The notes below the pieces were generated by a model. That model saw nothing but the letters and a program-made list of their open reading frames with translations, had not been told where the DNA came from and made no database searches. 64,000 bases of DNA from the human T2T-CHM13v2.0 reference genome, Homo sapiens. A program made the translations under genes and the position numbers. Every line of letters starts with the position of its first letter. The stretch's first letter is position 1. The DNA lies in assembly GCF_009914755.1 (NCBI RefSeq), contig NC_060943.1; one strand, 5' to 3'. Shown here in pieces: positions 1,152-42,131 of this stretch.

Positions 1152-4968
<3,817 letters not shown>

Positions 4969-5031
4969 TATGATGTTAGCTGGTGATTTTGCTCGTTAGT
5001 TGATGCAGTTTCTTCCTAGTCTCAATGGTCT

Positions 5032-6050
5032 TTACATTTTGGTATGATTTTGCAGTGGCTGATACCGGTTGTTCCTTTCCATGTTTAGTGCTTCCTTCAG
5101 GAGCTCTTTTAGGGCAGGCCTGGTGGTGACAAAATCTCTCAGCATTTGCTTGTCTGTAAGGTATTTTATTTCTCCTTCACTTATGAAGCTTAGTTTGGCT
5201 GGATATGAAATTCTGGGTTGAAAATTCTTTTCTTTAAGAATGTTGAATATTGGCCCCCACTGTCTTCTGGCTTGTAGGGTTTCTGCCGAGAGATCCGCTG
5301 TTAGTCTGATGGGCTTCCCTTCGTGAGGGTAACCCGACCTTTCTCTCTGGCTGCCCTTAACATTTTTTCCTTCATTTCAACTTTGGTGAATCTGACAATT
5401 ATGTGTCTCGGAGTTGCTCTTCTCGAGGAGTATCTTTGGGGTATTCTCTGTATTTACTGAATCTGAATGTTGGCCTGCTTTGGTAGATTGGGGCAGTTCT
5501 CCTGGATAATATCCTGCAGAGTGTTTTCCAACTTGGTTCCATTCTCCCCATCACTTTCAGGTACACCAATCAGACGTAGATTTGGTCTTCTCACATAGTC
5601 CCATATTTCTTGGAGACTTTGCTCATTTCTTTTTATTCTTTTTTCTCTAAACTTCCCTTCTCACTTCATTTCATTCATTTCCTCTTCCATCACTGATACC
5701 TTTTGTTCCAGTTGATGGCATCAGCTCCTGAGGCTTCTGCATTCTTCACGTAGTTCTCAAGCCTTGGTTTTCAGCTGCATCAGCTCCTTTAAGCACCTCT
5801 CTGTATTGGTTATTCTAGTTATACATTCTTCTAAATTTTTTTCAAAGTTTTCAACTTCTTTGCCTTTGGTTTGAATGTCCTCTCATAGCTTGGAATAATT
5901 TGATCGTCTGAAGCCTTCTTCTTGCAACTCGTCAAAGTCATTCTCCATCCAGCTTTGTCCCATTGCTGGTGAGGAACTGCGTTCCTTTGGAGGAGGAGAG
6001 GCGCTCTGCTTTTTAGAGTTTCCAGTTTTTCTGCTCTGTTTTCTCCCCAT
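5032..6050 (-). pseudogene. L1-A ORF1 (RNA-binding protein), disrupted
   Basis: ATG GGG AGA AAA at 6050, canonical ...AAAATGTAA end at 5032. No long ORF. Extra CG at 5322-5323. Confidence 0.94.
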
Positions 6051-6958
6051 CCTTGTGGTATTATCTACTTTTGGTCTTTGACGATGGTGATGTACAGATG
6101 GGTTTTTGGTGTGGATGTGCTTTCTGTTTGTTAGTTTTCCTTCTAACAGACAGGACCCTCAGCTGCAGGTCTGTTGGAGTACCTGGCCGTGTGAGGTGTC
6201 AGTCTGCCCCTGCTAGGAAGTGCCTCCCAGTTAGGCTTCTGGGGGTCAGGGGTCAGGGACCCACTTGAGGAGGCAGTCTGCTGGTCCTCTGATCTCCAGC
6301 TCTGTGCTGGGAGAACCACTGCTCTCTTCAAAGCTTTCAGACAGGGACACTTAAGTCTGCAGAGGTTACTGCTGTCTTTTTGTTTGTCTGTGCCCTGCCC
6401 CCAGAGGTGGAGCCTACAGAGGCAGGCAGACCTCCTTGAGCTGTGGTGGGCTCCACCCTGTTCCAGCTTCCTGGCTGCTTTGTTTACCTAAGCAAGCCTG
6501 GGCAATGGTGGGCGCCCCTCCCCCAGCCTCGCTGCCGCCTTGCAGTTTGATCTAAGACTGCTGTGCTAGCAATCAGGTAGACTCCCTGGGCATAGGACCT
6601 TCTGAGCCAGGTGTGGGACACAATCTCCTGGTGTGCCGTTTTTTAAGCCCATCGGAAAAGCGCTGTATTACGGTGGGAGTGACCCAATCTTCCAGGTGCC
6701 CTCTGTCATCCCTTTCTTTGACTAGGAAAAGTAACTCCCTGAACCCCTGCGCTTCCCGAGTGAGGCAATGACACGCCCTGCTTCAGCTCCTGCATGGTGT
6801 ATGCACCCACTGACCTGCGCCCACTGTCTGGGACTCCCTAGTGAGATGAACCCGGCACCTCAGATAGAAATGCAGAAATCACTGGTCTTCTGTGTCGCTC
6901 AGGCTGGAAGCTGTAGACCGGAGCTGTTCCTATTCAGCCATCTTGGCTCCTCTCCCCC
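6051..6958 (-). promoter_or_regulatory. L1-A 5'UTR (internal sense promoter, antisense promoter, YY1 motif)
   Basis: GC-rich L1 5'UTR. rc CCAAGATGGC YY1-type motif at ~6937-6946. Activity not shown. Confidence 0.8.
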
Positions 6959-8770
6959 TTAAATTTTCTTTTGATAAAGTAGTTTTGAAACCCTCTTTTT
7001 GCAGAATCTGCAAGTGGAAAATTCTATTCCTTTGAAGTCTTCATTGGAAACTGGAATATATTCACATAAAAACTAGACAAAAGCATTCTGAGAAACATCT
7101 TTGTGGTGTGTGCATTCAACTTACAGAATGGAACCTTTCTTTTGATATAACAGTTTTGTAACACAGTTTTTGTAGAATCCGCAAGTTGACATTGGGAGAA
7201 CTTTGAGGACTATGGTGGAAAAAGAAATATCTTCACATAAAAACGAGACAGAAGCATTCTCAGAAACTACTTTGTGATGTCTGCATTCGACTCACAGAGT
7301 TGAACCATTGTTTTGATAGAGCAGTTTTGAAACACTCTTTCTGTTGAATCTGCAAGTGGATATTTGTACTGCTTTGAGGCCTTCTTTGGTAATGGGAATA
7401 TCTTCTCATAAAAACTAGACAGAAGCATTCTCAGAAACTTTTTTGTGATGTGTGCATTCAAGTCACGGAGTTGAACATTCCTTTTCATAGAGCAGTTTTG
7501 AAACACTCTTTTTGTAGAATCTGCAAGTGGTTAATTGGAGTACTTTGAAGTCTTCATTAGAAACGGCTATATCTTCACATAAAAACTAGACAGTTGCATT
7601 CTCAGAAACTTCTTTGTGATGTGTGAATTCAACTCACAGGGTTGAACCTTCCTTTTGATAGAGCAGTTTTGAAAAACTCTTATTGTAGGGTCTGCAAGTG
7701 GATATCTGGAGTATTTTGGAACCTTCGTTGGAAATGGGAATATCTTCACATAAAAACTAGAAAGAAACATTCTCAGAAACTGCTTTGTTTTGGGTGCATT
7801 CAGCTCACAGAGTTTAATCTTTCTTTTGATAGAGCAGTTTTGAAACCCTCCTTTTGTAGAATTTGCAAGTGGATATTTGGACTGCCTTGAGGCCTTCTTT
7901 GGAAACGGGAATATCTTCACAGAAAAACTAGACAGAAGCATTCTCAGAAACTTTTTTCTGATGTGTGCATTCAACTGACAGAGTTACACCTTCCTTTTGA
8001 TAGAGCAGTTTCCAAACACACTTTTTGTATGATCTGAAAGTGGATATTTGAAATGCTGTGAGGCCTTCATTGGAAACGGGAATAGCTTCACATAAAAACT
8101 AGACAGAAGGATTCTCAGAAACTACTTTGTGATGTGTGCATTCAACTCACAGAGTTGAACCCTACTTTTGTAGAGCAGATTTGAAACACTCTTTTTGTGG
8201 AATCTGAAAGTGGATATTTGGAACCTTTTGAGGCCTCTGTAGAAAAGGTAATTTCTTTAAATAAAAAACTAGAAAGAAGCACTTTCAGAAACTAGTTTGT
8301 GATGTTTGCATTCAACCCATGGAGTTTAACCTTTCTTTGGATAGAGCAGTTTTGAAACACTCTTTTTGTAGAATCTGCAAGTGGATATTTTGACTGCTTG
8401 GAGGTATTCGTTAGCAACGGAAATATCTTAACATAAAAACAAGACTGAAGCATTCTCAGAAACTTCTTTGTGATGTTTGTATTCAACTCACAGAGTTGAA
8501 CCTTTCTTTTCAAACAGAAGTTTTGAAACACTCTTTTTGTAGAATCTGCAAGTGTTTATTTGGACTGCTTTGAGGGCTTCATTGGAAACGGGAATATCTT
8601 CACATAAAAACTAGACAGAAGCATTCTGAGAAACTTCCTTGTGATGTGTACATTCAACTCACAGAGTTGAACCTTCCTTTTGATAGCGCAGTTTTGAAAC
8701 TCTCTTTTTGTAGAATCTGCAAGTGGATAATTGGAGTACTTTGAAGTTTTCATTAGAAACAGCTCTATCT
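6959..8770 (+). repeat. Alpha satellite spacer (~10.6 monomers) between head-to-head L1s
   Basis: Same monomer motifs and orientation as the flanks. Resumes in register after the L1-A TSD. Confidence 0.99.
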
Positions 8771-9662
8771 GAAGATGGCCGAATAGGAACAGCTCCAGTC
8801 TACAGCTCCCAGCGTGAGCGACACAGAAGATGGGTGATTTCTGCATTTCCATCTGAGGTACCGGGTTCATCTCACTAGGGAGTGCCAGACAGTGGGTGCA
8901 GGTCAATGGGTGCGTGCACTGTGCGCGAGCCGAAGCAGGGCGAGGCATTGCCTCACTTGGGAAATGCAAGGGGTCAGGGAGTTCCCTTTCTGAGTCAAAG
9001 AAAGGGGTGACGGACGGCACCTGGAAAATCGGGTCACTCCCACCCGAATACTGCGCTTTTCCGACAGGCTTAAAAAACGGTGCACCACGAGATTGTATCC
9101 CGCACCTGGCTCAGAGGGTCCTACACCCACGAAGTCTCGCTGATTGCTAGCACAGCAGTCTGAGTTCAAACTGCAAGGCGGCAGCGAGGCTGGGGGAGGG
9201 GCGCCCGCCATTGCCCAGGCTTGCTTAGGTAAACAAAGCAGCCAGGAAGCTGGAACAGGGTGGAGCCCACCACAGCTCAAGGAGGCCTGCCTGTCTCTGT
9301 AGGCTCCACCTCTGGGGGCAGGGCACAGGCAACAAAAAACAGCAGTAACCTCTGCAGACTTAAATGTCCCTGTCTGAGCTTTGAAGAGAGCAGTGGTTCT
9401 CCCAGCATGCAGCTGGAGATCTGAGAATAGGCAGACTGCCTCCTGAAGTGGGTCCCTGACACCTGACACCCGAGAAACCTAACTGGGAGGCACCCCCCAG
9501 CAGGGGCACACTGACACCTCATACTGCCAGGTACTCCAACAGACCTGCAGCTGAGGGTCCTGTCTGTTAGAAGGAAAACTAACAAACAGAAAGCACATCC
9601 ACACCAAAAACCCATCTGTACATCACCATCATCAAAGACCAAAAGTAGATAAAACCACAAAG
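8771..9662 (+). promoter_or_regulatory. L1-B 5'UTR (sense and antisense promoter region)
   Basis: L1 5'UTR sequence that still holds many CpGs. AAGATGGCC YY1 core at the very 5' end. Confidence 0.8.
8903..9211 (-). CDS. L1 ORF0-like antisense reading frame, open, 102 aa
   Basis: MAGAPPPASLPPCSL...SEPG...RFSRC within ORF-track entry 8903..9469; ATG at 9211. Matches the primate L1 ORF0 N-terminus as recalled. Expression unknown. Confidence 0.6.
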   Translation of the reverse strand: MAGAPPPASLPPCSLNSDCCASNQRDFVGVGPSEPGAGYNLVVHRFLSLSEKRSIRVGVTRFSRCRPSPLSLTQKGNSLTPCISQVRQCLALLRLAHSARTH

Positions 9663-10682
9663 ATGGGGAAAAAAACAGAACAGAAAAACTGGAAATTCTA
9701 AAATGCAGAGTGCCTCTCCTCCTCCAAAGGAACGCAGCTCCTCACCAGCAACGGAACAAAGCTGGATGGAGAATGATTTTGACGAGCTGAGAGAAGAAGG
9801 CTTCAGACGATCAAATTACTCTGAGCTATGGGAGGACATTCAAACCAAAGGCAAAGAAGTTGAAAACTTTGAAAAAAATTTAGAAGAATGTATAACTAGA
9901 ATAACCAATACAGAGAAGTGCTTAAAGGAGCTGATGCAGCTGAAAACCAAGGCTCCAGAACTACGTGAAGAATGCAGAAGCCTCAGGAGACGATGCGATC
10001 AACTGGAAGAAAGGGTATCAGCGATGGAAGATGAAATGAATGAAATGAAGTGAGAAGGGAAGTCTAGAGAAAAAAGAATAAAAAGAAATGAGCAAAGCCT
10101 CCAGGAAATATGGGACTATGTGAAAAGACCAAATCTACGTCTGATTGGTGTACCTGAAAGTGATGGGGAGAATGGAACCAAGTTGGAAAACACTCTGCAG
10201 GATATTATCCAGGAGAAATTCCCCAATCTAGCAAGGCAGGCCAACGTTCAGATTCAGGAAATACAGAGAACGCCACAAAGATACTCCTCGAGAAGAGCAA
10301 CTCCGAGACACATAATTGTCAGATTCACCAAAGTTGAAATGAAGGAAAAAATGTTAAGGGCAGCCAGAGAGAAAGGTCGGGTTACCCTCACGAAGGGAAG
10401 CCCATCAGACTAACAGCGGATCTCTCGGCAGAAACCCTACAAGCCAGAAGACAGTGGGGGCCAATATTCAACATTCTTAAAGAAAAGAATTTTCAACCCA
10501 GAATTTCATATCCAGCCAAACTAAGCTTCATAAGTGAAGGAGAAATAAAATACTTTACAAACAAGCAAATGCTGAGAGATTTTGTCACCACCAGGCCTGC
10601 CCTAAAAGAGCTCCTGAAGGAAGCACTAAACATGGAAAGGAACAACCGGTATCAGCCACTGCAAAATCATACCAAAATGTAA
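9663..10682 (+). pseudogene. L1-B ORF1, disrupted
   Basis: ATGGGG at 9663 followed by an extra A. TGA at 10051-10053. CG insertion at 10391-10392. Confidence 0.96.
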
Positions 10683-10745
10683 AAACCATTGAGACTAGGA
10701 AGAAACTGCATCAACTAACGAGCAAAATCACCAGCTAACATCATA

Positions 10746-14569
<3,824 letters not shown>

Positions 14570-14844
14570 ACAATGAGATCACATCGACACAGGAAGGGGA
14601 ATATCACACTCTGGGGACTGTTGTGGGGTGGGGGGAAGGGGGAGGGATAGCATCAGGAGATATACCTAATCCTAGATGACGAGTTAGTGGGTGCAGCGCA
14701 CCAGCATGGCACATGTATACATATGTAACTAACCTGCACAATGTGCACATGTACCCTAAAATTTAAAGTATAATAAAAAAATAAAAAAATTAAAAAAATT
14801 AAAATAAAAAAAAACAACCCATTTTCTGGGGAGAAAAAAAAAAA

Positions 14845-17800
14845 CTAGACGGATGCATTCTCAGAAACTACTTTTGGATGTGTGCATTCAACTCAAAGAA
14901 TTTAAAATTTCTTTTGATAGAGCAGTTTTGAAACACTCTTTTTGTAGAATCTGCAAGTGGATATTTGGAAACTTTTGAGCCCTATGGTAGAAAAGGAAAT
15001 ATCTTCATAGGAAAACTAGAAAGAAGCATTCTCGGAAACTACTTCGTGATGTGTGCATTCACCTCACAGAGTTTAACCTTTCTTTAGATACAGCAGTTTT
15101 GTAACACTCTTTTTGTAGAATATGCAAGTAGATATTTGGAGAACTTTGAGGGCTATGGTGGAAAAGGAAATACCTTCACATAAAAACTAGACATAAGCAT
15201 TCTCAGAAACTTCTTTCTGAGATTTGCATTCAACTCACAGAGTTGAACGTTTCTTTTCATAGAGCAGATTTGAAACACTCTTTTTGTAGAATCTGCAAGT
15301 GGATATTTGGACTGCTTTGAGGCCTTCCTTGTAAACGGGAATATCTTCACATACAATCTAGACAGAAGCATTCTCAGAAACTTATTTGTGATGTGTGCAT
15401 TCAACACACAGAGTTAAATCTTTCTTTTGATAGAGCAATTTTGAAACACTCTTTTTGCAGAATCCGCAATTGGATAATTGGGGTGCTTAGAGGCCTATGG
15501 TAGAAAAGGAAATATCTACATATAAAAACTAGACAGAAGCATTCTCAGAAACTACTTTGTGATGTGTGCTCACAATTCACATAATTCACCTTTCTTTTGA
15601 TAGAGCAGTTTTGAGACACTCTTTGTAGAATCTGCATTGGACATTTGGACTGCTTTGAGGCCTTCGTTGGAAATGGGAATATCTTCACTTGAAAACTAGA
15701 CAGAAGCATTCTCAGAAACTTCTTTGTGATGTGGACATTCAACTCACAGAGTTGAACATTCCTATTGATAGAGCAGTTTTGAACACACTTGTACAATCTG
15801 CAAGTGGATAATTGGAGTAATTTGAAGTCTTCGTTGGAAACGGGTATATCTTCACATAAAAACTAGACAGATGCATTCTCAGAAACTATTTTGTGATGTG
15901 TGCTCACAATTCACATAATTCACCTTTCTTTTGATAGAGCAGTTTTGAAACACTCTTTTTGTAGCATCTGCATTGGGCATTTGGACTGCTTTGAGGCCTT
16001 CGTTGGAAATGGGAATATCTTCACGTGAAAACTAGACAGAAGCATTCTCAGAAACTTCTTTGTGATGTGGACATTCAACTCACAGAGTTGAACATTCCTA
16101 TTGATAGAGCAGTTTTGAACACACTTGTTGTACAATCTGCAAGTGGATAATTGGAGTAATTTGAAGTCTTCGTTGGAAACGGGTATATCTTCACATAAAA
16201 ACTAGAAAGATGCATTCTCAGAAAGTTCTTTGTGATGTGTGCATTCAGCTCACAGAGTTGAACCTTCCTATTGATAGAGCAGTTTTGAAACACTCTTTTT
16301 GTAGAATCTGCAAGTGGACATGTCGTGCTCTTTGAGGTCTTTGGTGGAAAAGAAAGTATCTTCACATAAAAACCAGACAGAAGCATTCTCAGAAACTTCT
16401 TGTAATGTGTGCATTTAACTCACAGAGTTGAACCTTCCTTTTCATAGAGAAGTTTTGATACACTCTTTTTGTAGAATCTGCAAGTAGATATTTGGAGTGC
16501 TTTCAGGCCTTCATTGGAAACCGGAATATCTTCACATAAAAACTAGACAGAAGCATTCTCAGAAACTTCCTTGCGATGTGTGCATTCATCTCACAGATTT
16601 AGACATTCCTTTTTATTGAGCAGTTTTGAAACACTCTTTTTATAGAATCTGCAAGTGGATAATTGGACTAATTTGAAGCCTTCGTTGGAAACGGGAATAT
16701 CTTCACATAAAAACTAGACAGATGCATTATTAGAAACTTCATTGTGATGTGTGCGTTCAACTCACAGAGTTTAAACCTCCTTTTGATAGAGCTGTATTGA
16801 AACCCTCTTTTTGTAGAATCTGCAAGTGAATATTTGGAGCACTTTGAGGCCTATGGTAAAAAAGGAAATATCTTCATATAAAAGCTAGAAAGAAGCATTC
16901 TTAGAAACTAATTTGTGATGTGTGCATTCATCTCACAGAGTTTAACCTTTCTTTTGACAGAGCAGTTAGAAACACTCTTTTTGTAGAATCTGAAACTGTA
17001 CATTTGGAACACTTTGTGGGCTATGGTGGAAAAAGAAATATCTTCACATAAATTCTAGACAGAAGCATTCTCAGAAACTTCTTTCTGATGTTTGCATTCA
17101 ACTCACAGAGTTAAACTTTCTTTTGATAGAGCACTTTTGAAACACTCTTTTTGTAGAATCTGCAAGTGGACATTTGTAGAAGTTTAAGGTATATGGTGGA
17201 AAAGGAAATATCTTCACATAAAAACTAGACAGAAGCATTCTCAGAAACTTCTTTGTGATGGGTGCATTCAACTCACAGAGTTGAACATTTCTTTTGGTAG
17301 AGAAGTTTTGAAACACTCTCTTTGTGGAATCTGCAAGTGGACATATGGAGCACTTTGAGGGCTATGGTGAAAAAAGAAGTATCATCACATAAAAACAAGA
17401 CAGAGGCATTCTCAGAAACTTCTTTGTGATTTTTGCATTCAACTCACAGTGTTCAACCTTTCTTTTGATAGAGCAGTTTTGAAACACACTTTTTGAAGAA
17501 TCTGCAAGTGGATATTTGGACTGCTTTGAGGCCTTTGTTGGAAACGGGAATATCTTCACATAAAAACGAGACAGAAGCATTCTCAGAAAGTACTTTGTTA
17601 TGTGTGCATTCAACTCACAGAGTTGAACACTCGTTTTGATACAGAAGTTTTGAAACACTGTTTTTGTAGGATCTGAAAGTGCATATTTGGAGCCCTTTGA
17701 GGCCTATTGTACAAAAGGAAATATCTTGATATAAAAACTAGAAAGAAGCATTCTCAGAAACTAGTTGTGATGTGTGCATTCGACTCACAGAGTTGAATGT

Positions 17801-26800: not shown

Positions 26801-29800
26801 CTTTGTGATGTCTGCATCAACTCACAGAATTTAACCTTTCTTTTGAGAGAGCAGTTTTGAAACATTCTTTTTGTACAATTTGCAAGTGGACATTTGGTGC
26901 ACTTTGAGGACTACGGTGGAAAAGGAACTATCTTCACATAAAAACTAGACAGAAGCCTTCTCAGAAACTACTTTGTGATGTGTGCATTCAACTCACAGTG
27001 TTGAACCTTCATTTTGATAGAGCAGTTTTGAAACATTCTTTTTGAAGTATCCACAAGTGGATATTTGGAGTGCTTTGATGCCTTCATTGGAAACGGGAAT
27101 ATCTTCACATAAAAACTAGACAGAAACATTCTCAGAAAATTATTTGTGATGTGTGAATTCAACTCACAGAATTGACACTTCCTTTTAATAGAGCAGTTTT
27201 GAAACACTTTTTTTGTAGAATCTGCAAGTGCATATTTTAAGTGCTTAGAAGACTTCATTGGAAATGGGAATAACTTCATATAAAATGTAGACAGAGGCAT
27301 TCTCGGAATCTTCTTTTTGATGTGTGAATTCAAATCACAGAGTTGAACTTTCTTTCCGCAGAGCAGTTTTGAAACAATCTTTTTGTAGAATCTGCAAGGG
27401 GATAGTTGGAGTACTTTGAATTGTTCGTTGGAAATGGGAATAACTTCTCAAAAAAAGTAGACAGAAGCATTCTCAGTAACAGCTTTGTGATGTGTGCATT
27501 CAACTCACAGAGTTGAACACTTCTTTTCATAGAGCAGTTTTGAAACACTGTTTTTGTAGAATGTGCAAGTGTATATTTGGAGTCATTTGAGGCCTATGGT
27601 AGAAAAGGAAATATCTTCATATAAAAACTAGAAAGGAGCATTCTCAGAAACTATTTTGTGATGTGTGCATTCCACACACAGAGTTTAACCTTTCTTTTGA
27701 TAGAGCATGTTTGAAACACTCTTTTTGTAGAATCTGCAAGTGGACATTTGGAGTACTTTGAGGGCTATGGTGGAAAAGGAAATATCTTCACATAAAAACT
27801 AGATAGAAGAATTATCAGTAACTTCTTTGTGATGTTTGCATTCAACTCACAGAGTTGAACCTTTCTTTTCATAGAACAGTTTTGAAACACTCTTTTTGTA
27901 GAATCTGCAAGTTGATATTTGGAGTGCTTTGAAGCCTTGGTGGGTAACGGGAATATCTTCCCATAAAACTAGACAGACGCATTCTCAGAAATTCGTTGGT
28001 TGTGTGTGAATTCAACTCATAGAGTTTAAGCTTTGTTGTGATAGAGCAGTTTTGCAAACACTCTTTTTGTAAAATCTGCAAGTGGATATTTGGAATCCTT
28101 CATATGAAAACTAGAAAGAAGCTGTCTCAGAAATTACTTCAGGATATTTGCATTCAACTCAGAGAGTTGAACCATTCTTTTGATAGAGCAGTTTTGCAAC
28201 ACACTTTTTGTAGAATCTGCAAGTGGATATTTGTAGCTCTTTGAGGCCTGTGGTAGAAAAGGATATATCTTCATATAAAAAGTAGAAAGAAGCATTCTCA
28301 GAAACTAATTTGGGACGTGTGCATTCAACTAACAGAGTTGAACATTTCTTTTGAAAGAGCAGTTTTGAAACACTCTTTTTGTACAATCTGCAAGTGGATA
28401 TTTGGAGTGCTTTAAAGCCTTCATTGGAAACGGGAATATCCTCAAATATAAACTAGACAGAAGCATTCTCAGAAACTCCTTTGTGATGTGTCCATTCAAC
28501 ACACAGAGTATAACATTTCTTTCTATAGAGCAGTTTTGAAACACTCCTTTTCTAGAATCTGCAAGTGGACATTTGGAGCACTTTGTGGTCTATGGTGGAA
28601 AAGGAAATATCTTCACATAAAAACTAGACAAAAGCATTCTCAGAAAAATCTTTGTGATGTGTACATTCAACTCAGAGAGTTCAACCTTTCTTTTGGTAGA
28701 GCAGTTTTGAATCATTCTTTTTGTAGAATCTGCAAGTGGTTGTTTTGAACCCTTTGAGGCCTATGGTAGAAAATGTAATATCTTCATATCAAAACTAGAC
28801 TGAAGCATTCTCAGAAACTACTTTTTGTTGTGTACATTCAACTCAGAGAGTTGAAACTTTGTTTTGATATAGCAGTTTTGAAACACTCTTTTTGTAGAAT
28901 CTGCAAGTGGACATATCGAGCTTTTTGAGGTATTCGGTGGAAAAGGAAGTATCTTCCCCTATAAACCAGACAGAATCATTCTCAAAAACTTCTTTGTGAT
29001 ATGTGCATTCAACTCACAGAGATGAACCTTCCTTTTTATAGAGCAGTTTTGAAATACTCTTTTTGTACAATCTACAGGTGGATATTTGGAGTGCTTTGAA
29101 GCCTTCATTGGAAACGGGAATATCTTCACATAAAAACTAGAAAGAAGCATTCCCAGAAACTTCTTTGTGATGTTTGCCTTCAACTCACAGAGTTGAACCT
29201 TCTTTTTGATAGAGAGTTTTGAAACACTCTTTTTATAGAATCTGCATGTGGATATTTGGAGCGCTTTGAGACCTATTGTAGAAAATGAAACATCTTCTAA
29301 TAAAAACTAGATGGAAGCATTCTCAGAAACTACTTTGTGATGTTCGTATTCAACTCAGAGGGTTGAACCTTTCCTTTGATAGAACAGTTTTGAATCACTC
29401 TTTTTGTAGTATCTGCAGGTGGATATTTGGACAGCTTTGAGGCTTTCTTTGGAAACGGGAATATCTTTACATAAAAACTAGACAGAAGCATTCTCAGAAA
29501 AGTCTTTTTGATGTGTGCATTCAGCTCACAGAGTTGAACCTTCCTTTTGATAGAGCAGTTTTGAGACACTCTTTTTGTAGAATCTGTAAGTGGATATTTG
29601 AAGTGATTTGAAGCCTTCAAAGGAAACGGGAATATCATAAAAACTAGATAGAATCATTCTCAGAAACTTCTACGTTATGTTTGCATTCAACTCAGAGAGT
29701 TGAACGTTTCATTTCATACATCAGTTTTGCAGCACTCTTTTTGTAGAATCTGCAAATGGACACTTGCAGCACTTTGAGGGCTATGGTGGAAAAGGAAATA

Positions 29801-32800
29801 TCTTTACATAAAAACTAGACAGAAGCATTCTCAGAAACATCTTTGTGATGTTTTCATTCAACTCAGAGAGTTGAACATTTCTTTTGATAAAGCAGTTTTG
29901 AAACACTCTTTTTCTAGAATCTGAAAGTGAATATTTGGAGTGCTTTGAAGCCTTCATTGGAAACAGGAATATCTTCACATAAAAACTAGACAGAAACGTT
30001 CTCAAAGACTACTTTTTAATGTGTGCATTCAACTCAGAGAGTTTAACCTTTCTTTGATATACCAGTTTTGAAACACACTTTTTGTAGAATCTGCAAGTGG
30101 ACATTTGGAGCACTTTGAGGGCTATGGTAGAAAAGGAAATATCTTCACATAAAAACTAGACAGAAGCATTCTCAGTAAGTTTTTTGTGATGTTTGCCTTC
30201 AACTCAGAGAGTTGAACCTTTCTTTTGATAGAGCAGTTTTGAAACACTCTTTATGTAGGATCTGCAAGTGGATATTTGGACCGCTTTGAGGCCTTCGTTG
30301 GAAACGGGAATATCTTCACATAAAAACTAGACAGAAGGATTCTCATAAACATTTTTGTGACGTGTGCCTTCATCTCACAGAGTTGAACGTTCCTTTTGAT
30401 AGAGCAGTTTTGAAACACTCTTTGTAGAATGTGCAAGTCGATATTTCGAGTGCTTTGAAGCCTTCATTGGAAAAGGGAATATCTTCAAATAAAAACTAGT
30501 GAGAAGCATTCTCAGAAACTTCTATGTGATGGGGGCATTCAACTCACGGAGTTGAACCCTCCTTTTGATAAGGCAGTTTTGAAACGCTCTTTTTGTAGAA
30601 TCTGAAATTGGATATTTGGAGTGATTTGAGGGCTACAGGGCAAAAGAAAATATCTTCATATAAAAACTACGCAGAAGCATTCTCAGAAACTACTTTGTGA
30701 TGAGTGCATTCAACTCACAGTGTTGAACCTTTCTTTTGATAGAGCAGTTTTGAAACACTCTTTTTGTAGAATCTGCAAGTGGACATTTGGAGCACTTAGA
30801 GGGCCATGGTGGAAAGGGAAATATCTTCACATAAAAACTAGACAGAAGCATTCCCACAAATTTCTTTGTGATATTTGTATTCCACTCAAGGAGTTGAACC
30901 ATTCTCTTCATAGAGCAGTTTTGAAGCACTTTTTTTGTAGAACCTGCAAGTGGATATTTGGACCGCTTTGAGGTCTTCCTTGGAAACGAGAATATCTTCA
31001 CATAAAAAGTAGACTGAAGCATTCTCAGAAACTTCCTTGTGATGTCTCCTTACAACTCACAGAATTTAACCTTTCTTTTGATAGAACAATTTTAAAACAC
31101 TCTTTTTGTAGAATCTGCCAGTGGATAATTGGAGTGCTTTGAACTCTTCGTTGGAAACGGGAATATATTCACATAAAAACTAGACAGGAGCATTCTCAAA
31201 AGCTGTTTTGCGATGTGTCCATTCAACTCACAGATTTTAACATATGTTTTGACGGAGCAGATTTGAAACACTCTTTTTGTAGAATCTGCAATTGGACATT
31301 TTGAGCACTTCGAGGGCTATGGTGGAAAAGGAAATATCTTCACATAAAAACTAGACAGAAGCATTCTCAGAAGCTTCCTTGTGATGTTTGCATTCAACTC
31401 AGAGAGTTGAACATTTCTTTTGATAGATCCGTTTTGAAACACTCTTTTTCAAGGTTCTGCAAGTGGATATTTAGATGGCTATGAGGTCTTCTTTGGAAAC
31501 AAGAATACCTTCACATAAAATCTAGACAGAAGCATTCTCAGAAACTTCTTTGACATGTGTGCATTCAACTCACCCAGTTGAATCTTCCTCTTGATAGAGC
31601 CATTTTGAAACATTCTTTTTGTAGTATCTGCAAGTGGATATCTGGATTGCTTTGAAGCATCCCTTGGAAATGGGAATATCTTCAAATGAAAAGTAGACAG
31701 AAGCATTCTCATAAACTTTTTTGTGATGTGTGCATTCAACTCACAGATTTGAAATCTCCTTTTGATAGAGCTGTTTTGAAACACTATTTTTGTAGAATCT
31801 GCAAGTGGATATTTGGAGTGCTTTGAAGCCTAAGGCAAAAAGGAGATATCTACATATAAAAACGAGACAGAAGCATTCTGAGAAACTTCTTTGTGATGTG
31901 TGCATTCAACCCACAGATTTCAACCTTTCTTTGGATAGAGCAGATTGGAAACACTCTTTTTTTAGAATCTGCAAGTGGATATTTGGTCAGTTTTCAGGCC
32001 TTTATTGGAAATGGGAATATCTTCACATAAAAACTAGACAGAAGCATTCTCAGAAGCTTCTTTGTGATGTTTGCATTCAACTCAGAGAGTTGAACATTTC
32101 TTTTGATAGAGCCGTTTTGAAACACTCTTTCTGAAGGATCTGCAAGTGGATATTTGGACGGCTATGAGGTCTTCTTTGGAAACGGGAATATCTTCACATA
32201 AAATCTAGACAGAAGCATTCTCAGAAACTTCTTTGTCATGTGTGCATTCAACTCACCCAGTTGAATCTTCCTCTTGATAGAGCAGTTTTGAAACACTCTT
32301 TTTGTAGTATCTGCAAGTGGATGTTTGGATTGATTTGAAACATCCGTTGGAAATGGGAATATCTTCAAATGAAAAGTAGACAGAAGCATTCTCAGAAACT
32401 TTTTTGTGATGTGCGCATTCAACTTACAGATTTGAAATCTCCTTTTGATAGAACTGTTTTGAAACGCTATTTTTGTATAATCTGCAAGTGGATATTTGGA
32501 GTGCTTTGAAGCCTATGGCAAAAAGGAAATATCTACATATAAAAACAAGACAGAAGCATTCTGAGAAACTTCTTTGTGATGTGTGCATTCAACCCACAGA
32601 TTTCAACCTTTCTTTGGATAGAGCAGATTGGAAACACTCTTTTTTTAGAATCTGCAAGTGGATATTTGGCCAGCTTTCAGACCTTCATTGGAAATGGGAA
32701 TATCTTCACATAAAAACTAGACAGAAGCATTTTCAGAAACTTGTTTGTGATGTGTGCTTTCAACTCACAGAGTTGAACCTTCCTTTTGATAGAGCAGTTT

Positions 32801-35800
32801 TGAGACACTCTTTTTCTAGAATGTGCACATGGATATTTAGACTGGTTTGTGGTCTTCGTTGGAAATGGAATACCTTCCCATAAATACTAGACAGAAGCAT
32901 TCTCAGAAACTTCTCTGTGATGTGTGCATTCAACTCACAGAGTTGAATCATCCGTTTGGTAGAACTGTTTTTAGACACTCTTTTTGTAGAATATGCAAGT
33001 GGATATTTCGAGTGCTTTGAAGCCTTCATTGGAATGAGAATATCTTCAAATAAAAACTAGACAGAAGCACTCTCAGAAACTTCTTTGGATTGGTGAATTC
33101 AACTCACAGAGTTTAACCTTTCTTTTGATAGAGCAGTTTTGAAACCCTCTTTTTGTAGAATCTGCAAGTGGACATTTAGAGCTCTTTGATGGCTATGGTG
33201 GAAAAGGAAATATCTTCACATAAAAACTAGATGGAAGCATTCTCAGAAACTTCTTTGTAATGTGTGCATTCAGCTCACAGAGTTCATCCTTTCTTTTGAT
33301 ACAGCAGTTTTGAAACACACTTTTTGCAGAATCTGCAAGTTGACATTTGAAGCAATTTGAGGGCTATGGTGGAAAAAGAAATATCTTCACATAAAAATTA
33401 GACAGAAGCATTCTCAGCACCTTCTTTGTGATATTTGCATTCAACTCACAGAGTTTAACCTTTCTTTTGATAGAGCAGTTTTGAAACCCTCTTTTTGTAG
33501 AATCTGCAAGTGGACATTTAGAGCTCTTTGATGGCTATGGTGGAAAAGGAAATATCTTCACATAAAAACTAGATGGAAGCATTCTCAGAAACTTCTTTGT
33601 AATGTGTGCATTCAGCTCACAGAGTTCATCCTTTCTTTTGATACAGCAGTTTTGAAACACACTTTTTGCAGAATCTGCAAGTTGACATTTGAAGCAATTT
33701 GAGGGCTATGGTGGAAAAAGAAATATCTTCACATAAAAATTAGACAGAAGCATTCTCAGCACCTTCTTTGTGATGTTTGCATTCAACTCACAGAGTTGAA
33801 ACTGTCTTTTGATAGAGCAGTTTTGAAACACTCTTTTTGTAGAATCTGCAAGTCGATATTTGGTCTGCTTTGAAGCCTTCGTTGGAAATAGGAATATCTT
33901 CACCTAAAAACTAGACAGAAGCATTCTCAGAAACTTCTTTTTGATGTTTGCATTCAACTCACAGAGTTGCACCTTCCTTTTGATACAGCAGTTTTGAAAC
34001 ACTCTTTGTAGAATACACAAGTGGATATTTGGAGTGCTTTGAAGCCTTCATTGGAAAGGGGAATATCTTCACATGAAAAGTAGACAGAAGGATACTCAGA
34101 AACTACTTTGTGATGTGTGCATTCAACTCACAGATTTGAACTCTCCTTTTGATAGAGCAGTTTTGAAACACTCTTTTTGTAGAATCTTCCCGTGGATATT
34201 TGGAGCCCTTTAAGGCCTCTGGTGGAAAAGTCAATTTCTTTATATTAAAACTAGAAAGAAGCATTCTCAGAAACTAGTCTCTGATGTGAGCATTCAACTC
34301 ACAGATTTTTACCTTTCTTTTGATAGGGCAGTTTTGAAACACTCTTTTTGTAGAATCTGCAAGTGAATATTTTGACTGCTTTGAGGAATTCTTTGGAAAC
34401 GATATTTTCGCATAAATACCAGACAGAAGCATTCTCAGAAACTTCTTTGTGATGTTTGCATTCAACTCACAGAGTTGCACCTTCCTTTTGATACAGCAGT
34501 TTTGAAACACTCCTTGTAGAATACACAAGTGGATATTTCGAGTGCTTTGAAACCTTCATTGGAAAGGGGAATATCTTCACATGAAAAGTAGACAGAAGGA
34601 TACTCAGAAACTACTTTGTGATGTGTGCATTCAACTCACAGATTTGAACTCTCCTTTTGATAGAGCAGTTTAAAACACTCTTTTTGTAGAATCTTCCCGT
34701 GGATATTTGGAACCCTTTAAGGCCTCTGGTGGAAAAGTCAATTTCTTTATATTAAAACTAGAAAGAAGCATTCTCAGAAACTAGTCTCTGATGTGAGCAT
34801 TCAACTCACAGATTTTTACCTTTCTTTTGATAGGGCAGTTTTGAAACACTCTTTTTGTAGAATCTGCAAGTGAATATTTTGACTGCTTTGAGGAATTCTT
34901 TGGAAACGATATTTTCACATAAATACCAGACAGAAGCATTCTCAGAAACTTCTTTGTGATGTTTGCATTCAACTCACAGAGTTGAACGTTTCTTTTCATA
35001 GAGCAGTACTGAAACACTCTTTTGGTAGAATCTGCAATTGGATATTTGGAACGGTTTGAGGCTTATGGTAGAAAAGGGAATATCTTCATATAAAAACTAT
35101 ACAGAAGTTTTCTCAGAAACATCTCTGTGATGTGTGCTTACAACTCACAGGATTTAACATTTCTTTTGATAGAGCAGTTTTGAAACATTCTTTTTGTAGG
35201 ATCTGCAAGTGGATAATTGGAGTGCTTTGAAGCCTTCGTTGGAAAAGGGAATATCCTCACCTAATAACTAGACAGAAGCATTTTCAAAAACTACTTTGTG
35301 ATGTGTGCATTCAACTCACAGAGTTTAACCTATCTTTTGAGAGAGCAGTTTTGAATCACTCTTATTGCAGAATCTGCGGGTGGACATTTAGATTACCTTG
35401 AGAGTTATGGTGGAAAAGGAAATATCTTCACATAAAAACTAGACAGAAGCATTCTCTGAAACTTCCTTGTGATGTTTGCACTCAACTCAGAGAGTTAAAC
35501 ATTTCTTTTGCTAGAGCAGTTTTGAAACACACTTTTTGTGGAATCTGCAAGTGGATATTTTAATCACTTTGTGTCCTTTGTGGGAAACGGGAATATCTTC
35601 ACATAAATACTGGACACAAGCATTCTCAGAAACTTCCTTGTGATGTGTGAATTCAACTCACAGAGTTGAATCTTCCTTTTGATAGAGTAGTTTTGAAACA
35701 CTCTTTTTGTAGTATCTGCAAGTGTATATATGGAGTGCTTTGAAGCCTTCATTGGAAACGGGAATATCTTCATCTAAAAACTAGAAAGAAGCATTCTCAA

Positions 35801-36325
35801 ATACTGCTTTGTGATGTGTGCAATCAACTCACAGAGTTTAACCTATCTTTTGATAGAGCATTTTTGAAACACACTTATTGTAGAATCTGCAAGTGGATAT
35901 TTGGAGCACTTTGAGGGTTATGGTGCAAAAGGAAATATCTTCACATAAACTAGACAGAAGCATTCTCAGAAACTTCATTGTGAAATTTGCATTCAACTCA
36001 GAGAGTTAAACATTTCTTTTGCAAGAGCAGTTTTGAAACACTCTTTTTGAAAAGTCTGCAAGTGGATATTTTGAGTGCTTTCTGTCCTAAGTTGGAAACG
36101 GGAATATCTTCATATGAACACTGGACAGAAGCATACTCAGAAACTTCCTTGTGATGTGTACATTCAACTCACATAGTTGAACTTTCCTTTTGATAGAGCA
36201 GTTTTGAAACACTCTTTTTGTAGTATCTGCAAGTGGATATTTGGAGTCCTTTGAAGCCTTCTTTCGAAACGGGAATACCTTCACATAAAAAGTAGACAGA
36301 AGGATTCTTAAAAAACTCCTTTGTG
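14845..36325 (+). repeat. Alpha satellite, divergent monomeric, mixed A-type (pJalpha box) and B-type (CENP-B box) monomers, SF5-like
   Basis: ~171-bp period. Irregular alternation of CTATGGTGGAAAAGGAAATATC and CTTCGTTGGAAACGGGAATATC. Several local tandem duplications. The SF5 assignment is inference. Confidence 0.97.
16680..16696 (+). promoter_or_regulatory. Canonical CENP-B box (example; others at 24014, 43041, 50720, 57915, 60971)
   Basis: Exact CTTCGTTGGAAACGGGA 17-mer. Many other copies are decayed at CpG (CTTCATTGG, AAATGGG). Confidence 0.93.
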
Positions 36326-37218
36326 GAAGATGGCCGAATAGGAACAGCTCTGGTCTACAGCTCCCAGAGTGAGCGACGCAGAAGACGGGTGATTTCTGCA
36401 TTTCCATCTGAGGTACCAGGTTCATCTCACTAGGGAGTGCCAGAGAGTGGGCACAGGTCAGTGGGTGCGTGCACCGTGTGTGAGCCGAAGCAGGGCGAGG
36501 CATTGCCTCACTTGGGAAGTGCAAGGGGTCAGGGAGTTCCCTTTCCAAGTCAAAGAAAGGGGTGACAGAGGCACCTGGAAAATCGGGTGACTCCCACCAG
36601 AATACTGCACTTTTCCGACCGGCTTAAAAATCGGCGCACCACGAGATTATATCCCGCAACTGGCTGGGAGGGTCCTAAGCCCACGGAGTCTTGCTAATTG
36701 CTAGCACAGCAGTCTGAGATCAAACTGCAAGGCGGCAGCTAGGCTGGGGGAGGGGCGCCCATAATTTCCCTGGCTTGCTTAGGTAAACAAAGCAGCCGGG
36801 AAGCTCGAACTGGGTGGAGCCCACCACAGCTCAAGAGGCCTGCCTGCCTCTGTAGGCTCCACCTCTGGGGGCAGGGCACAGACAAACAAAAAGACAGCAG
36901 TAACCTCTGGAGACTTAAATGTCCCTGTCTGACAGCTTTGAAGAGAGCAGTGGTTCTCCCAGCACGCCGCTGGAGATCTGAGAATGGGCAGACTGCCTCC
37001 TCAAGTGGGTCCCTGACACCTGACACCCGAGCAGCTAACTGGGAGGCACCCCCCAGCAGGGGCACACTGACACCTCACATGGCAGGGTATTCCAACAGAC
37101 CGGCAGCTGAGGCTCCTGTCTGTTGGAAGGAAAACTAACAAACAGAAAGGACATCCACACCAAAAACCCATCTGTACATCACCATCATCAAAGACCAAAA
37201 GTAGATAAAACCACAAAG

Positions 37219-38243
37219 ATGGGGAAAAAACAGAACAGAAAAACTGGAAACTCTAAAAAGCAGAGCGCCTCTCCTCCTCCAAAGGAATGCAGTTCCTCAC
37301 CAGCAATGGAACAAAGCTGGATGGAGAATGACTTTGACAAGCTGAGAGAAGAAGGCTTCAGACAATCAAATTACTCTGAGCTACGTGAGGACATTCAAAC
37401 CAAAGGCAAAGAAGTTGAAAACTTTGAAAAAAATTTAGAAGAACGTATAACTAGAATAACCATAACCAATACAGAGAAGTGCTTAAAGGAACTGATGGAG
37501 CTGAAAACTAAGGCTCGAGAATCACGTGAAGAATGCAGAAGCCTCAGGAGCCGATGCGATCAACTGGAAGAAAGGGTATCAGCGATGGAAGATGAAGTGA
37601 ATGAAATGAAGCGAGAAGGGAAGTCTAGAGAAAAAAGAATAAAAAGAAATGAGCAAAGTCTCCAAGAAATATGGTACTATGTGAAAAGACCAAATCTACG
37701 TCTGATTGGTGTACCTGAAAGTGATGGGGAGAATGGAACCAAGTTGGAAAACACTCTGCAGGATATTATCCAGGAGAACCTCCCCAGTCTAGCAAGGCAG
37801 GCCAACGTTCAGATTCAGGAAATACAGAGAACGCCACAAAGATACTCCTCGAGAAGAGCAACTCCGAGACACATAATTGTCAGATTCACCAAAGTTGAAA
37901 TGAAGGAAAAAATGTTAAGGGCAGCCAGAGAGAAAGGTCGGGTTACCCTCACGAAGGGAAGCCCATCAGACTAACAGTGGATCTCTCGGTAGAAACCCTA
38001 CAAGCCAGAAGACAGTGGGGGCCAATATTCAACATTCTTAAAGAAAAGAATTTTCAACCCAGAATTTCATATCCAGCCAAACTAAGCTTCATAAGTGAAG
38101 GAGAAATAAAATACTTTACAGACAAGCAAATGCTGAGAGATTTTGTCACCACCAGGCCTGCCCTAAAAGAGCTCCTGAAGGAAGCACTCAACATGGAAAG
38201 GAACAACCGGTACCAGCCACTGCAAAATCATCCCAAAATGTAA
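37219..38243 (+). pseudogene. L1-C ORF1, open for 251 aa then frameshifted
   Basis: MGKKQNRK from 37219, open to ...RVTLTKGSPSD* (37974). C-terminal domain (ARR, YPAKLS) lies in another frame to 38243. In-frame 6-bp duplication (ITITN) in the coiled coil. Confidence 0.96.

Positions 38244-38306: not shown

Positions 38307-42131
<3,825 letters not shown>

What the first reader, a model, noticed from the sequence alone, without database searches (positions are those of the whole stretch)
5322..37974. Three separately inserted full-length L1s share the same ORF1-killing 2-bp insertion
Seen: L1-A (5322-5323), L1-B (10391-10392) and L1-C (37952-37953) all read GTTACCCTCA-CG-AAGGGAAGCCC. This gives ...RVTLTKGSPSD* instead of the known ...RVTLKGKPIRLTADLS. 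They also share other non-consensus variants: AGAAGACAGTGG (RQW for REW), SKWKR for SKCKR, GACACCCGAAC/GACACCTGAAC for GACACCCTAAC, and DCQL for DCKL. Yet each has its own insertion site, junctions and tail, so they are not copies made by satellite duplication. Known: the ORF1p C-terminal domain (RR261-262, YPAKLS) is required for retrotransposition in cis, and L1 shows strong cis preference. Inference: this is either an ORF1-defective source lineage that spread by trans-complementation, possibly enriched in alpha satellite, or long-range gene conversion homogenising satellite-embedded L1s. It is the best candidate here for an undescribed system.
Basis: partly seen in the sequence, partly recalled or inferred. 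Interest (0 to 1): 0.85.

Follow-up and report, generated by a model that had tools for sequence, protein, structure and literature searches.

The report
Neighbouring L1 copies share frameshift by conversion
Three old L1 retrotransposon copies lying close together in chromosome 19 satellite DNA carry the same 2-base defect because a short stretch of DNA was copied between them, not because a defective L1 lineage was jumping.

Summary
Three L1s (A, B, C) with different insertion sites, orientation and tails all read CCCTCA-CG-AAGGGAAGCCC. In the whole assembly the motif occurs only 6 times: these three and their copies in a duplicated block on chr5.

The mobile ORF1-defective lineage is not supported.
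- A 376-column patch around the CG has 0/366, 0/367 and 1/367 pre-duplication differences between the pairs. The background is 4.1-5.4%.
- Within the patch, mutation after the duplication is normal.
- A belongs by descent to a dispersed sub-lineage that includes a chr4 copy, so it is not a sibling of B and C.
- About 51 site transfers happened between the copies after the chr5/chr19 duplication, including multi-site tracts and a shared 4-bp deletion.
- The other "shared variants" each occur 32-234 times across the genome.

Best reading: short-tract non-allelic gene conversion among neighbouring L1s. One point stays unexplained: B and C begin at the same L1 nucleotide. Interest is low to moderate.

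The parts
930..6958 (-). L1-A. It is full length: the 5' end is GGGGGAGAGGAGCC... at 6958 and the A-tail ends at about 930. It lies antisense to the satellite. Flanking duplication is AAAAGAAAATTTAA (6959-6972) / AAAAGAAAAGTTAA (916-929).
   Evidence: By descent it is related to a chr4 copy, L049, with 12 exclusive shared states. It is older-type at about 14 diagnostic sites.
8772..14814 (+). L1-B. It starts at AAGATGGCC and lacks the first ~11-12 nt. Its tail is A-rich. A degenerate flanking duplication is present: AAACAGCTCTATCTG / AAACAACCCATTTTCTG. It lies head to head with A across a 1.8-kb satellite spacer.
36326..42411 (+). L1-C. An extra G is followed by AAGATGGCC, the same L1 start nucleotide as B. 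The tail is of (TAAA)n/(AAAAT)n type with an internal GAAGTTACTG. Flanking duplication is AAAAAACTCCTTTGTG (36310-36325) / AAAAAACTACTTTGTG (42412-42427).
   Evidence: ORF1 is open for 251 aa up to the frameshift stop. Pfam finds Tnp_22_trimer, Transposase_22, Exo_endo_phos and RVT_1.
5322..5323 (-). The 2-bp CG insertion in ORF1 of L1-A.
10391..10392 (+). The 2-bp CG insertion in ORF1 of L1-B.
37952..37953 (+). The 2-bp CG insertion in ORF1 of L1-C.
10276..10651 (+). The homogenised patch (alignment columns 1530-1905) in B. Its counterparts are about 5063-5438 in A (-) and about 37837-38212 in C (+). It holds the three changes seen in no reference: A>G at column 1559, the CG insertion, and G>C at column 1706.
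   Evidence: Pre-duplication differences are 0/366 (A/B), 0/367 (A/C) and 1/367 (B/C), against a 4.1-5.4% background. For every pair, the longest difference-free run lies here.
45190..47323 (.). L1-D, a 5'-truncated copy with an internal inversion: 45190-46273 on the minus strand and 46275-47323 on the plus strand. It starts 2.8 kb beyond C and also takes part in the local sharing.
   Evidence: It carries 4503C but not 5443C. It shares 10 of its 48 non-reference states with A, B or C, 6-7 of them with C.
1..48371 (.). The block duplicated, in inverted orientation, in the chr5 pericentromere (G000:C5, about 50.61-50.67 Mb). The duplicate carries copies A5, B5, C5 and D5 with the same junctions.
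   Evidence: Window 1-35813 is 98.25% identical over 35.8 kb. A/A5 is 98.6%, B/B5 98.3% and C/C5 99.06%.

Best explanation
A, B and C are three separate, old L1 insertions into monomeric 171-bp satellite in the chr19 pericentromere. They come from at least two different dispersed L1 sub-lineages.

The CG insertion arose once, in one decaying copy. A short stretch of DNA then carried it to the other two copies by non-allelic (ectopic) gene conversion between neighbouring homologous repeats. The tract is about 0.3-0.4 kb and also holds an A>G change 86 bp upstream and a G>C change 60 bp downstream. This happened long after the insertions and shortly before the whole block was duplicated to the chr5 pericentromere.

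The same process has kept moving other small patches among A, B, C and the fourth L1, D, both before and after that duplication. No retrotransposition of a defective element is needed.

Shown: the locus restriction, the homogenised patch, the separate ancestry of A, and the transfers after the duplication. Inferred: the direction and number of the conversion events, their timing in years, and which copy first acquired the CG.
For: 1. Locus restriction. The exact motif occurs 6 times in 3.1 Gb: 3 here and 3 in the mirrored chr5 block. The reversed-pattern control gives 0. The chr5 copies have the same junctions, flanking duplications and tails. With up to 2 mismatches there are 40 hits (control 12). 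Of the 30 loci given, the ORF1 probe matched 11: the six cluster copies plus L007, L008, L019, L027 and L030. Those five read GTCACTCAC(A/G)AAGGG, 21 nt and in frame. Four more near-hits that I fetched are not L1 ORF1.

2. Homogenised patch. In columns 1530-1905, differences fixed before the duplication are A/B 0/366, A/C 0/367 and B/C 1/367. Outside the patch they run at 4.10%, 5.39% and 4.09% (P = 3e-7, 2.5e-9, 4.8e-6). An unbiased scan puts the longest difference-free run of every pair on the CG site: AB 1276-2026, AC 1530-1905, BC 1474-1813, any pair 1530-1813. Shuffles reach these lengths in 0, 0, 3 and 0 of 10000. Inside the patch, paralogue divergence (A/A5 1.86%, B/B5 1.60%, C/C5 0.80%) equals that outside (1.38, 1.65, 1.05%). 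So the patch is not a cold spot for mutation.

3. A is not a sibling of B and C. L049 on chr4 shares 12 exclusive states with A along the whole element, against 3 with B and 1 with C. It also carries 2949G and 5443C. A has 11 of 68 private substitutions in older-subfamily states, against 2 of 27 for B and 1 of 52 for C. A, B and C form a clade only downstream of column 1550. The B/C marker GTGCTTAG occurs in 16 dispersed copies.

4. Conversion is seen directly after the duplication. About 51 site transfers of donor-private states occurred, some counted under two donors. They include A5>B5 at 7 sites in columns 1474-1529, and C5>A5 at 2324-2325 and 3326-3331. A and B on chr19 share a 4-bp deletion that A5, B5, C and C5 lack.

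5. All three pair types share variants seen in no reference: AB 12, AC 6, BC 7. No single tree gives that pattern.

6. Literature. Non-allelic conversion between neighbouring retroelements, strongest within about 10 kb, is described for Alu (passages of PMC8230782 and PMC6598467). Conversion between LINE copies is mentioned in passages of PMC1920257.
Against: B and C begin at exactly the same L1 nucleotide (AAGATGGCC), C with one extra G. Conversion does not explain this. A common source RNA would.

Four further variants (2650G, 2949G, 4503C, 5443C) are shared by all three over 2.8 kb. The 2650G+2949G pair occurs only in the six cluster copies (6 of 6 hits). These variants do not sit in conspicuous difference-free runs (30-141 columns). 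So their spread needs several older tracts, or shared descent of B and C.

GC bias is equivocal. Variants in all three elements are 5 W>S to 1 S>W, against 78 to 150 for single-copy changes (p = 0.022). Variants in two elements show no bias, at 6 to 13.

The references L049-L053 were picked because they carry cluster variants. So the count of only 4 columns seen in no reference is partly circular. Only L037 is an unbiased same-age reference.

D's sharing (10/48) is only moderately above the controls (L037 1/15, L050 3/70, L051 4/32, L049 8/63).

Only one human assembly was examined. No reads and no ape orthologues were available.
Confidence: 0.8

Rival explanations
1. Mixed history. B and C are siblings, or parent and offspring, from one source RNA that started at AAGATGGCC. 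That source may already have carried the CG, so it would have been mobilised in trans. A is an older, unrelated insertion that acquired the shared states from B by conversion across the 1.8-kb inverted spacer.
For: B and C have the same 5' start nucleotide. B/C is the closest pair overall, at 95.0%. There are 7 BC-only variants seen in no reference. The 2650G+2949G combination is unique to the cluster. A's separate ancestry fits this model as well.
Against: The patch around the CG is also homogenised between B and C: 1/367 against 4.09%. So even for this pair the CG region coalesces far later than the rest of the element. From the three pre-duplication pair differences, B's and C's branches are very unequal, roughly 1.4% against 2.7% by my arithmetic. 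Siblings or a parent-offspring pair should be equal. L059 and L060 share a marker at column 2662 with C but not with B. No other member of such a lineage exists in the assembly. Two siblings landing 27 kb apart has a chance of order 1e-5 under random insertion (inference).
Confidence: 0.1
2. All three are offspring of one ORF1-defective source lineage that spread by trans-complementation, perhaps with a preference for alpha satellite.
For: The CG and several other variants are shared by three insertions with separate flanking duplications. All three sit in satellite.
Against: No copy exists outside this block and its duplicate. A shares ancestry with a chr4 copy and carries older-subfamily states that B and C lack. 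A, B and C are not a clade upstream of column 1550. Divergence is 0-0.3% in the patch against 4-5% elsewhere, whereas siblings would be evenly diverged. Private changes are unequal, at 180, 74 and 135.
Confidence: 0.03
3. The donor of the patches was not chromosomal DNA. It was cDNA made from a locally transcribed L1 copy, used as a repair template in the neighbouring copies. This is RNA-mediated conversion, as described for yeast Ty and Tf2 elements.
For: The mechanism exists for other retroelements (passage of PMC6598467). The data here do not distinguish the nature of the donor molecule.
Against: A cDNA donor would have no reason to act only on copies within 37 kb. The locality and the shared 4-bp deletion between the inverted pair fit direct DNA-DNA pairing. 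No evidence for this mechanism in L1 was seen in the papers I read.
Confidence: 0.04
4. Assembly or polishing artefact. Reads from one copy were used to correct the others.
For: The region is repetitive and duplicated on two chromosomes.
Against: The six copies keep their own private variants within tens of bases of the CG, and each pair of paralogues differs by 0.8-1.9% inside the patch. An artefact would need to hit six places on two chromosomes identically. Reads could not be examined.
Confidence: 0.02

Closest known systems
Non-allelic (ectopic) gene conversion between neighbouring interspersed repeats, best documented for Alu (Aleshin and Zhi 2010, as cited in passages of PMC8230782 and PMC6598467)
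   Same: Separate insertions keep their own flanks. Short internal tracts become identical. Sharing is confined to nearby copies. Trees disagree along the element. Non-diagnostic mutations are shared between neighbours.
   Different: The repeats here are 6-kb L1s, not 300-bp Alus. Four copies take part, over 1.8 to about 27 kb, which is beyond the ~10 kb range quoted for Alu. The setting is pericentromeric satellite. A later inter-chromosomal duplication gives an internal clock.
Arm-to-arm conversion in inverted repeats and palindromes (recalled general knowledge, e.g. Y-chromosome palindromes)
   Same: A and B are head-to-head inverted repeats with a 1.8-kb spacer. They exchange tracts repeatedly: a shared 4-bp deletion, the A5>B5 tract, and 99.2% A/B identity in one 400-column window.
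   Different: The arms are only 94.5% identical overall. So conversion is occasional and short-tract, not continuous homogenisation. The arms arose as separate insertions, not by duplication.
Trans-mobilised defective L1 or non-autonomous L1-derived lineages (cis preference and trans-complementation, Wei et al. 2001; recalled, not read here)
   Same: The shared lesion removes the C-terminal part of ORF1p, which such a lineage would lack.
   Different: A mobile lineage should leave dispersed copies with the lesion and evenly diverged siblings. Neither is found.

Membership tests
LINE-1 (L1PA-type primate L1) | ORF1 with coiled-coil/trimerisation and RNA-binding domains | tested here: met
   In C's ORF1 (251 aa), Pfam finds Tnp_22_trimer (1.8e-28) and Transposase_22 (5e-57). 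The reading ends at the frameshift before the C-terminal domain.
LINE-1 (L1PA-type primate L1) | ORF2 with apurinic-type endonuclease and reverse transcriptase | tested here: met
   Exo_endo_phos (2.7e-8) and RVT_1 (1.2e-31) are found in broken ORF2 pieces of C.
LINE-1 (L1PA-type primate L1) | About 6 kb long, A-rich 3' tail, flanking target-site duplication | tested here: met
   Lengths are 6.03-6.04 kb. Tails and 14-16-bp duplications are clear for A and C and degenerate for B. Identity to other genomic full-length L1s is 94-96%.
ORF1-defective L1 lineage spread by trans-complementation | Copies with the lesion at dispersed, unrelated genomic sites | tested here: not met
   6 of 6 exact hits lie in one block and its chr5 duplicate. 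No other L1 with the insertion was found among the near-matches I examined. Six near-match places were not examined.
ORF1-defective L1 lineage spread by trans-complementation | Carriers form one clade over the whole element and are evenly diverged from each other | tested here: not met
   A groups with L049. There is no A-B-C clade upstream of column 1550. Divergence is 0-0.3% in the patch against 4.1-5.4% elsewhere.
ORF1-defective L1 lineage spread by trans-complementation | Retrotransposition of the defective element when ORF1p is supplied in trans | not testable with these tools
Non-allelic gene conversion among dispersed repeats | A bounded tract of near-identity within otherwise diverged copies that keep different flanks | tested here: met
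   patch at columns 1530-1905; different flanks and monomer phases.
Non-allelic gene conversion among dispersed repeats | Transfer events that can be timed independently of the inferred tree | tested here: met
   Transfers after the duplication are seen by comparing each copy with its chr5 or chr19 paralogue: about 51 sites, multi-site tracts and a shared 4-bp deletion.
Non-allelic gene conversion among dispersed repeats | Conflicting phylogenetic signal along the sequence | tested here: met
   Region trees differ. AB, AC and BC exclusive variants all exist, at 12, 6 and 7.
Non-allelic gene conversion among dispersed repeats | GC-biased transmission of variants | tested here: inconclusive
   Variants shared by three copies are 5 W>S to 1 S>W (p = 0.022 against singles). 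Variants shared by two copies are 6 to 13, with no bias.

The most novel reading that the evidence does not exclude
B and C, which start at the same L1 nucleotide, could be local offspring of an ORF1-frameshifted source whose RNA was reverse-transcribed close to where it was made. Alternatively, the patches could have been copied through cDNA of a locally transcribed L1. Either way this would be an RNA-based route that homogenises or re-inserts L1 sequence preferentially within tens of kilobases in pericentromeric satellite.
Probability: 0.07. Interest if true: 0.65.

Novelty: new member of a known kind. Interest (0 to 1): 0.25.

Why it matters
It is a clean worked example, with an internal clock supplied by the chr5/chr19 duplication. 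It shows that a shared disabling mutation in separately inserted L1s does not by itself indicate a common source element.

Conversion between neighbouring L1s can imitate a small subfamily. It can distort age estimates based on divergence and create mosaic elements. That matters for L1 phylogenies, for source-element tracing, and for dating satellite layers by their embedded L1s.

It also shows exchange over up to about 27 kb among four L1 copies inside monomeric satellite. Complete assemblies have only recently made such regions readable. The mechanism itself is not new.

Tried and rejected
1. Satellite or segmental duplication of one L1 with its flanks. Rejected. The flanks of B and C align only at generic monomer level, about 78% by my arithmetic from the 90.08% whole-HSP identity. 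The monomer phases differ and A is inverted.

2. Near-matches of the motif elsewhere as decayed members of a lineage. Rejected for those examined. L007, L008, L019, L027 and L030 read an in-frame 21-nt older form. The other 19 of the 30 loci did not match the ORF1 probe. Of the 4 fetched from the 10 places without a locus, 3 do not match L1-B at all and the C13 one matches only its 5'UTR part at 69%. The other 6 were not examined.

3. Single-variant genome counts as evidence of a subfamily. Uninformative on their own (234, 116, 32 and 144 hits). Co-occurrence was used instead. I also compared the listed coordinates by eye. These lists show only the first 100 places.

4. A as the source of B and C. 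Rejected, because A has older-type states that B and C lack.

5. D as strong extra proof of local exchange. Only moderately above controls.

6. GC-bias test. Mixed result.

7. First permutation run. It mis-measured the observed run for three rows because of a coding slip. I redid it and use only those numbers.

Only two 2.3-kb pieces were obtained.

10. Literature searches returned no listed title that describes this locus. These were only three keyword searches, so this is not a claim of absence from print. Supplements (for example the TE tables of the T2T repeat paper) were not seen.

Full report
WHAT IS THERE

The window is 171-bp satellite (TRF period 171, 80-81% matches), interrupted by L1 sequence. 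A self-comparison and the junctions give three essentially full-length L1s.
- A lies at about 930-6958 on the minus strand. It has the complete GGGGGAGAGGAGCC 5' end.
- B lies at 8772-14814 on the plus strand.
- C lies at 36326-42411 on the plus strand.
- A fourth copy, D (45190-47323), is truncated and internally inverted.

Pfam finds the L1 ORF1 trimerisation and RNA-binding domains, and the ORF2 endonuclease and reverse transcriptase, in C.

The 19-nt motif with the extra CG occurs three times in the window, with none expected, at the stated bases. Twelve of 12 full-length L1s fetched from elsewhere in the same genome lack the CG and read AGAAGAGAGTGG 60 bases downstream. All six cluster copies read AGAAGACAGTGG there.

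In C the ORF1 frame is open for 251 codons and ends RVTLTKGSPSD*. A has earlier private stops. B has an earlier private frameshift.

The three elements are separate insertions. Their sites fall at different phases of the monomer (about 2, 83-107 and 137-151). The flanks overlap by about one target-site duplication. A is antisense to the satellite, and the tails differ. The flanks of B and C align only at the generic level of any two monomers.

GENOME-WIDE DISTRIBUTION

In the whole 3.1-Gb assembly the exact motif occurs six times: the three here and three on contig C5 near 50.62-50.66 Mb. The C5 copies have the same spacing in mirror image, 5075 and 27056 against 5074 and 27561.

Window 1-35813 matches the reverse complement of that chr5 stretch at 98.25% over 35.8 kb. 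The chr5 L1s have the same junctions, duplications and tails. So the three-L1 arrangement, with the CG in all three, existed before the block was duplicated between the two pericentromeres.

With up to two mismatches there are 40 hits (control 12). Among the 30 given as loci, the ORF1 probe matched the six cluster copies and five older L1s. Those five read GTCACTCAC(A/G)AAGGG, which is 21 nt and in frame. Of four more that I fetched, three do not match L1-B at all and the C13 one matches only its 5'UTR part at 69%. Six were not examined.

ARE THE THREE A LINEAGE?

Overall identity is A/B 94.5%, A/C 93.8% and B/C 95.0%. Each copy is 98.3-99.1% identical to its chr5 paralogue. B is closer (about 96%) to unrelated young L1s than to A or C.

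Against the 12-copy panel, 25 columns are shared by A, B and C. Private changes number 180, 74 and 135. Of 24 of those columns examined, the unbiased same-age reference L037 shares 14. In columns 200-3050, 7 of 11 shared substitutions are simply older-subfamily states. What remains specific is 1559G, the CG, 1706C, 2650G, 2949G, 4503C and 5443C. Two weaker cases are 155T (a CpG transition) and 3258A, both of which are also seen in some references.

The DCQL word occurs 234 times, the SKWKR word 116 times and GACACCYGAAC 32 times. In combination they are unique to the cluster. 2650G with 2949G gives 6 of 6 hits in the cluster. 1559(G/T) with 1706C gives the six plus one unrelated divergent L1.

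A HAS ITS OWN ANCESTRY

L049, a copy on chr4, shares 12 exclusive states with A, spread over the whole element. It shares 3 with B and 1 with C, and it carries 2949G and 5443C. I estimate chance would give about 2-4 such sites.

A also has 11 of 68 private substitutions in older-subfamily states, against 2 of 27 for B and 1 of 52 for C. About 14 diagnostic sites are older-type in A only, and 12 of them lie upstream of column 1530.

Region trees put A, B and C in one clade only downstream of column 1550, with support 0.955 and 0.835 and short stems. The double substitution GTGCTTAG shared by B and C occurs in 16 dispersed copies. Two of those, L059 and L060, also share a marker with C but not with B.

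So at least two of the "shared non-consensus variants" look like markers of A's dispersed sub-lineage that passed locally to B and C.

THE DECISIVE PATCH

Listing the variable columns shows that A differs from B and C at seven sites in columns 1474-1529. From column 1530 to 1905 the three are then the same, apart from changes made after the duplication.

I counted only differences fixed before the duplication, meaning both paralogues of each element agree. In the patch these are A/B 0 of 366, A/C 0 of 367 and B/C 1 of 367. Outside it the rates are 4.10%, 5.39% and 4.09% (P = 3e-7, 2.5e-9, 4.8e-6).

Because I set those limits after looking at the data, I also scanned the whole element. For every pair the longest difference-free run covers the CG: AB 1276-2026, AC 1530-1905, BC 1474-1813, any pair 1530-1813. 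The next longest runs are 141-233 columns. Random placement of the same number of differences reaches the observed length in 0, 0, 3 and 0 of 10000 trials. One search's own permutation lines were faulty for three rows and are not used.

Inside the patch the paralogue pairs differ by 0.8-1.9%, as they do outside (1.05-1.65%). So the patch mutates normally. The between-element divergence inside the patch (0.5-2.1%) equals the divergence accumulated since the duplication.

Siblings from one source would be as diverged here as everywhere else. The patch therefore records a late homogenisation of about 0.3-0.4 kb that carried 1559G, the CG and 1706C into all three copies shortly before the duplication.

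CONVERSION IS DEMONSTRABLY ACTIVE HERE

Each copy has a paralogue that shows its earlier state, so transfers after the duplication can be read directly. About 51 site transfers of donor-private states are seen, some counted under two possible donors. They include A5 to B5 at seven sites in columns 1474-1529, and C5 to A5 at 2324-2325 and 3326-3331. I estimate a few would be expected by coincidence.

A and B on chr19 share a 4-bp deletion that A5, B5, C and C5 lack. A/B identity is 99.2% in one 400-column window, and A5/B5 is 98.5% in the neighbouring window.

Variants seen in no reference are shared by all three pair types: AB 12, AC 6, BC 7. No single tree can produce that.

D, a structurally different L1 2.8 kb beyond C, carries 4503C but not 5443C. 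It shares 10 of its 48 non-reference states with A, B or C, and 6-7 of these are with C. Controls give 1/15, 3/70, 4/32 and 8/63. That is only a moderate excess.

WHAT DOES NOT FIT NEATLY

B and C start at the same L1 nucleotide, which conversion does not explain.

The four other shared variants span 2.8 kb and do not lie in striking identical runs. So they need older, eroded tracts or some shared descent of B and C.

The GC-bias test is mixed. Variants present in all three elements are 5 W>S to 1 S>W, against 78 to 150 for single-copy changes (p = 0.022). Variants in two elements are 6 to 13.

References L049-L053 were chosen because they carry cluster variants, so filters that use them are partly circular.

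TIMING (INFERENCE)

The block paralogues differ by about 1-1.75% and the elements by 5-6%. With a recalled neutral rate of about 1e-9 per site per year, this puts the duplication at some millions of years ago and the insertions at some tens of millions.

A passage of the T2T repeat paper (10.1101/2021.07.12.451456) says that L1s embedded in monomeric alpha satellite are more diverged than L1s elsewhere. So such ages may be overestimates.

COMPARISON WITH WHAT IS KNOWN

Non-allelic gene conversion between neighbouring retroelement copies is established. It falls off with distance, within about 10 kb for Alu, and it produces mosaic elements (passages of PMC8230782 and PMC6598467, both citing Aleshin and Zhi 2010). 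Repair of a break in a LINE by conversion from other LINEs, and an intrachromosomal conversion inside an L1, are mentioned in passages and the reference list of PMC1920257. Cis preference and trans-complementation of L1 (Wei et al. 2001) are recalled, not read here.

This case is a further example of the known process. It stands out for involving four L1s over up to about 27 kb in satellite DNA, and for the dating that the duplication allows.

VERDICT

The mobile-lineage reading is not supported. The conversion alternative is supported at about 0.8. It is a new member of a known kind, of low to moderate interest.

Noticed in passing
window 8772 and 36326-36327: B and C both begin at the same internal L1 nucleotide (AAGATGGCC...). 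C has one extra G that could be cap-derived or could match the base before B. A has the complete 5' end. No explanation under conversion.
   Followed up: partly
window 35813-36326 against G000:C5: The 98.25% chr19/chr5 alignment stops about 512 bp (three monomers) upstream of C. It resumes with that offset, and the chr5 copy lacks three monomers there. C/C5 (99.06%) is more alike than A/A5 (98.6%) or B/B5 (98.3%), so the two parts of the block may have different histories.
   Followed up: partly
L050 (C19:25683950-25690250) / L052 (C5:50449580-50455880) and L051 (C19:24555950-24562250) / L053 (C5:50040440-50046740): Two further L1s in the chr19 pericentromere each have a 98.8-99.0% twin in the chr5 pericentromere. 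So chr5/chr19 pericentromeric duplication extends well beyond this window. L051/L053 carry 2650G and 4503C, and L050/L052 carry 2650G.
   Followed up: partly
window 10380-10403, with L007 and L008: The frameshifted string can be read as the usual GTTACCCTCA joined to the ...CTCACGAAGGG form seen in two older L1 copies, offset by 2 nt at a shared CTCA. The CG might therefore come from a misaligned exchange with an older L1 rather than from a new insertion. The next older-type site, 26 bp downstream, is not carried, so I did not pursue this.
   Followed up: no
window 42357-42366 against 911-929: C's tail contains GAAGTTACTG between A-rich runs. It loosely resembles the sequence just after A's tail (GAAAAGTTAAATTCTG). 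The similarity is too weak and low in complexity to call a 3' transduction.
   Followed up: no
window 9663-10700 (ORF1 of B): In B an earlier private frameshift and the CG together bring the reading from B's ATG back into the normal ORF1 C-terminal frame (…GKPIRLTADLS…YPAKLS…), although many stops lie in between.
   Followed up: no
window 45190-47323: L1-D is a 3' fragment in two abutting pieces of opposite orientation. That is the pattern expected from twin priming (recalled term). It is present with the same structure on chr5.
   Followed up: partly
genome lists: Hits of single-variant words are regionally clumped, for example 8 DCQL-word hits in C4:96.87-97.42 Mb. The GTGCTTAG word occurs in pairs on the short arms of C13, C14 and C21, with one more on C15, presumably through duplications there.
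   Followed up: no
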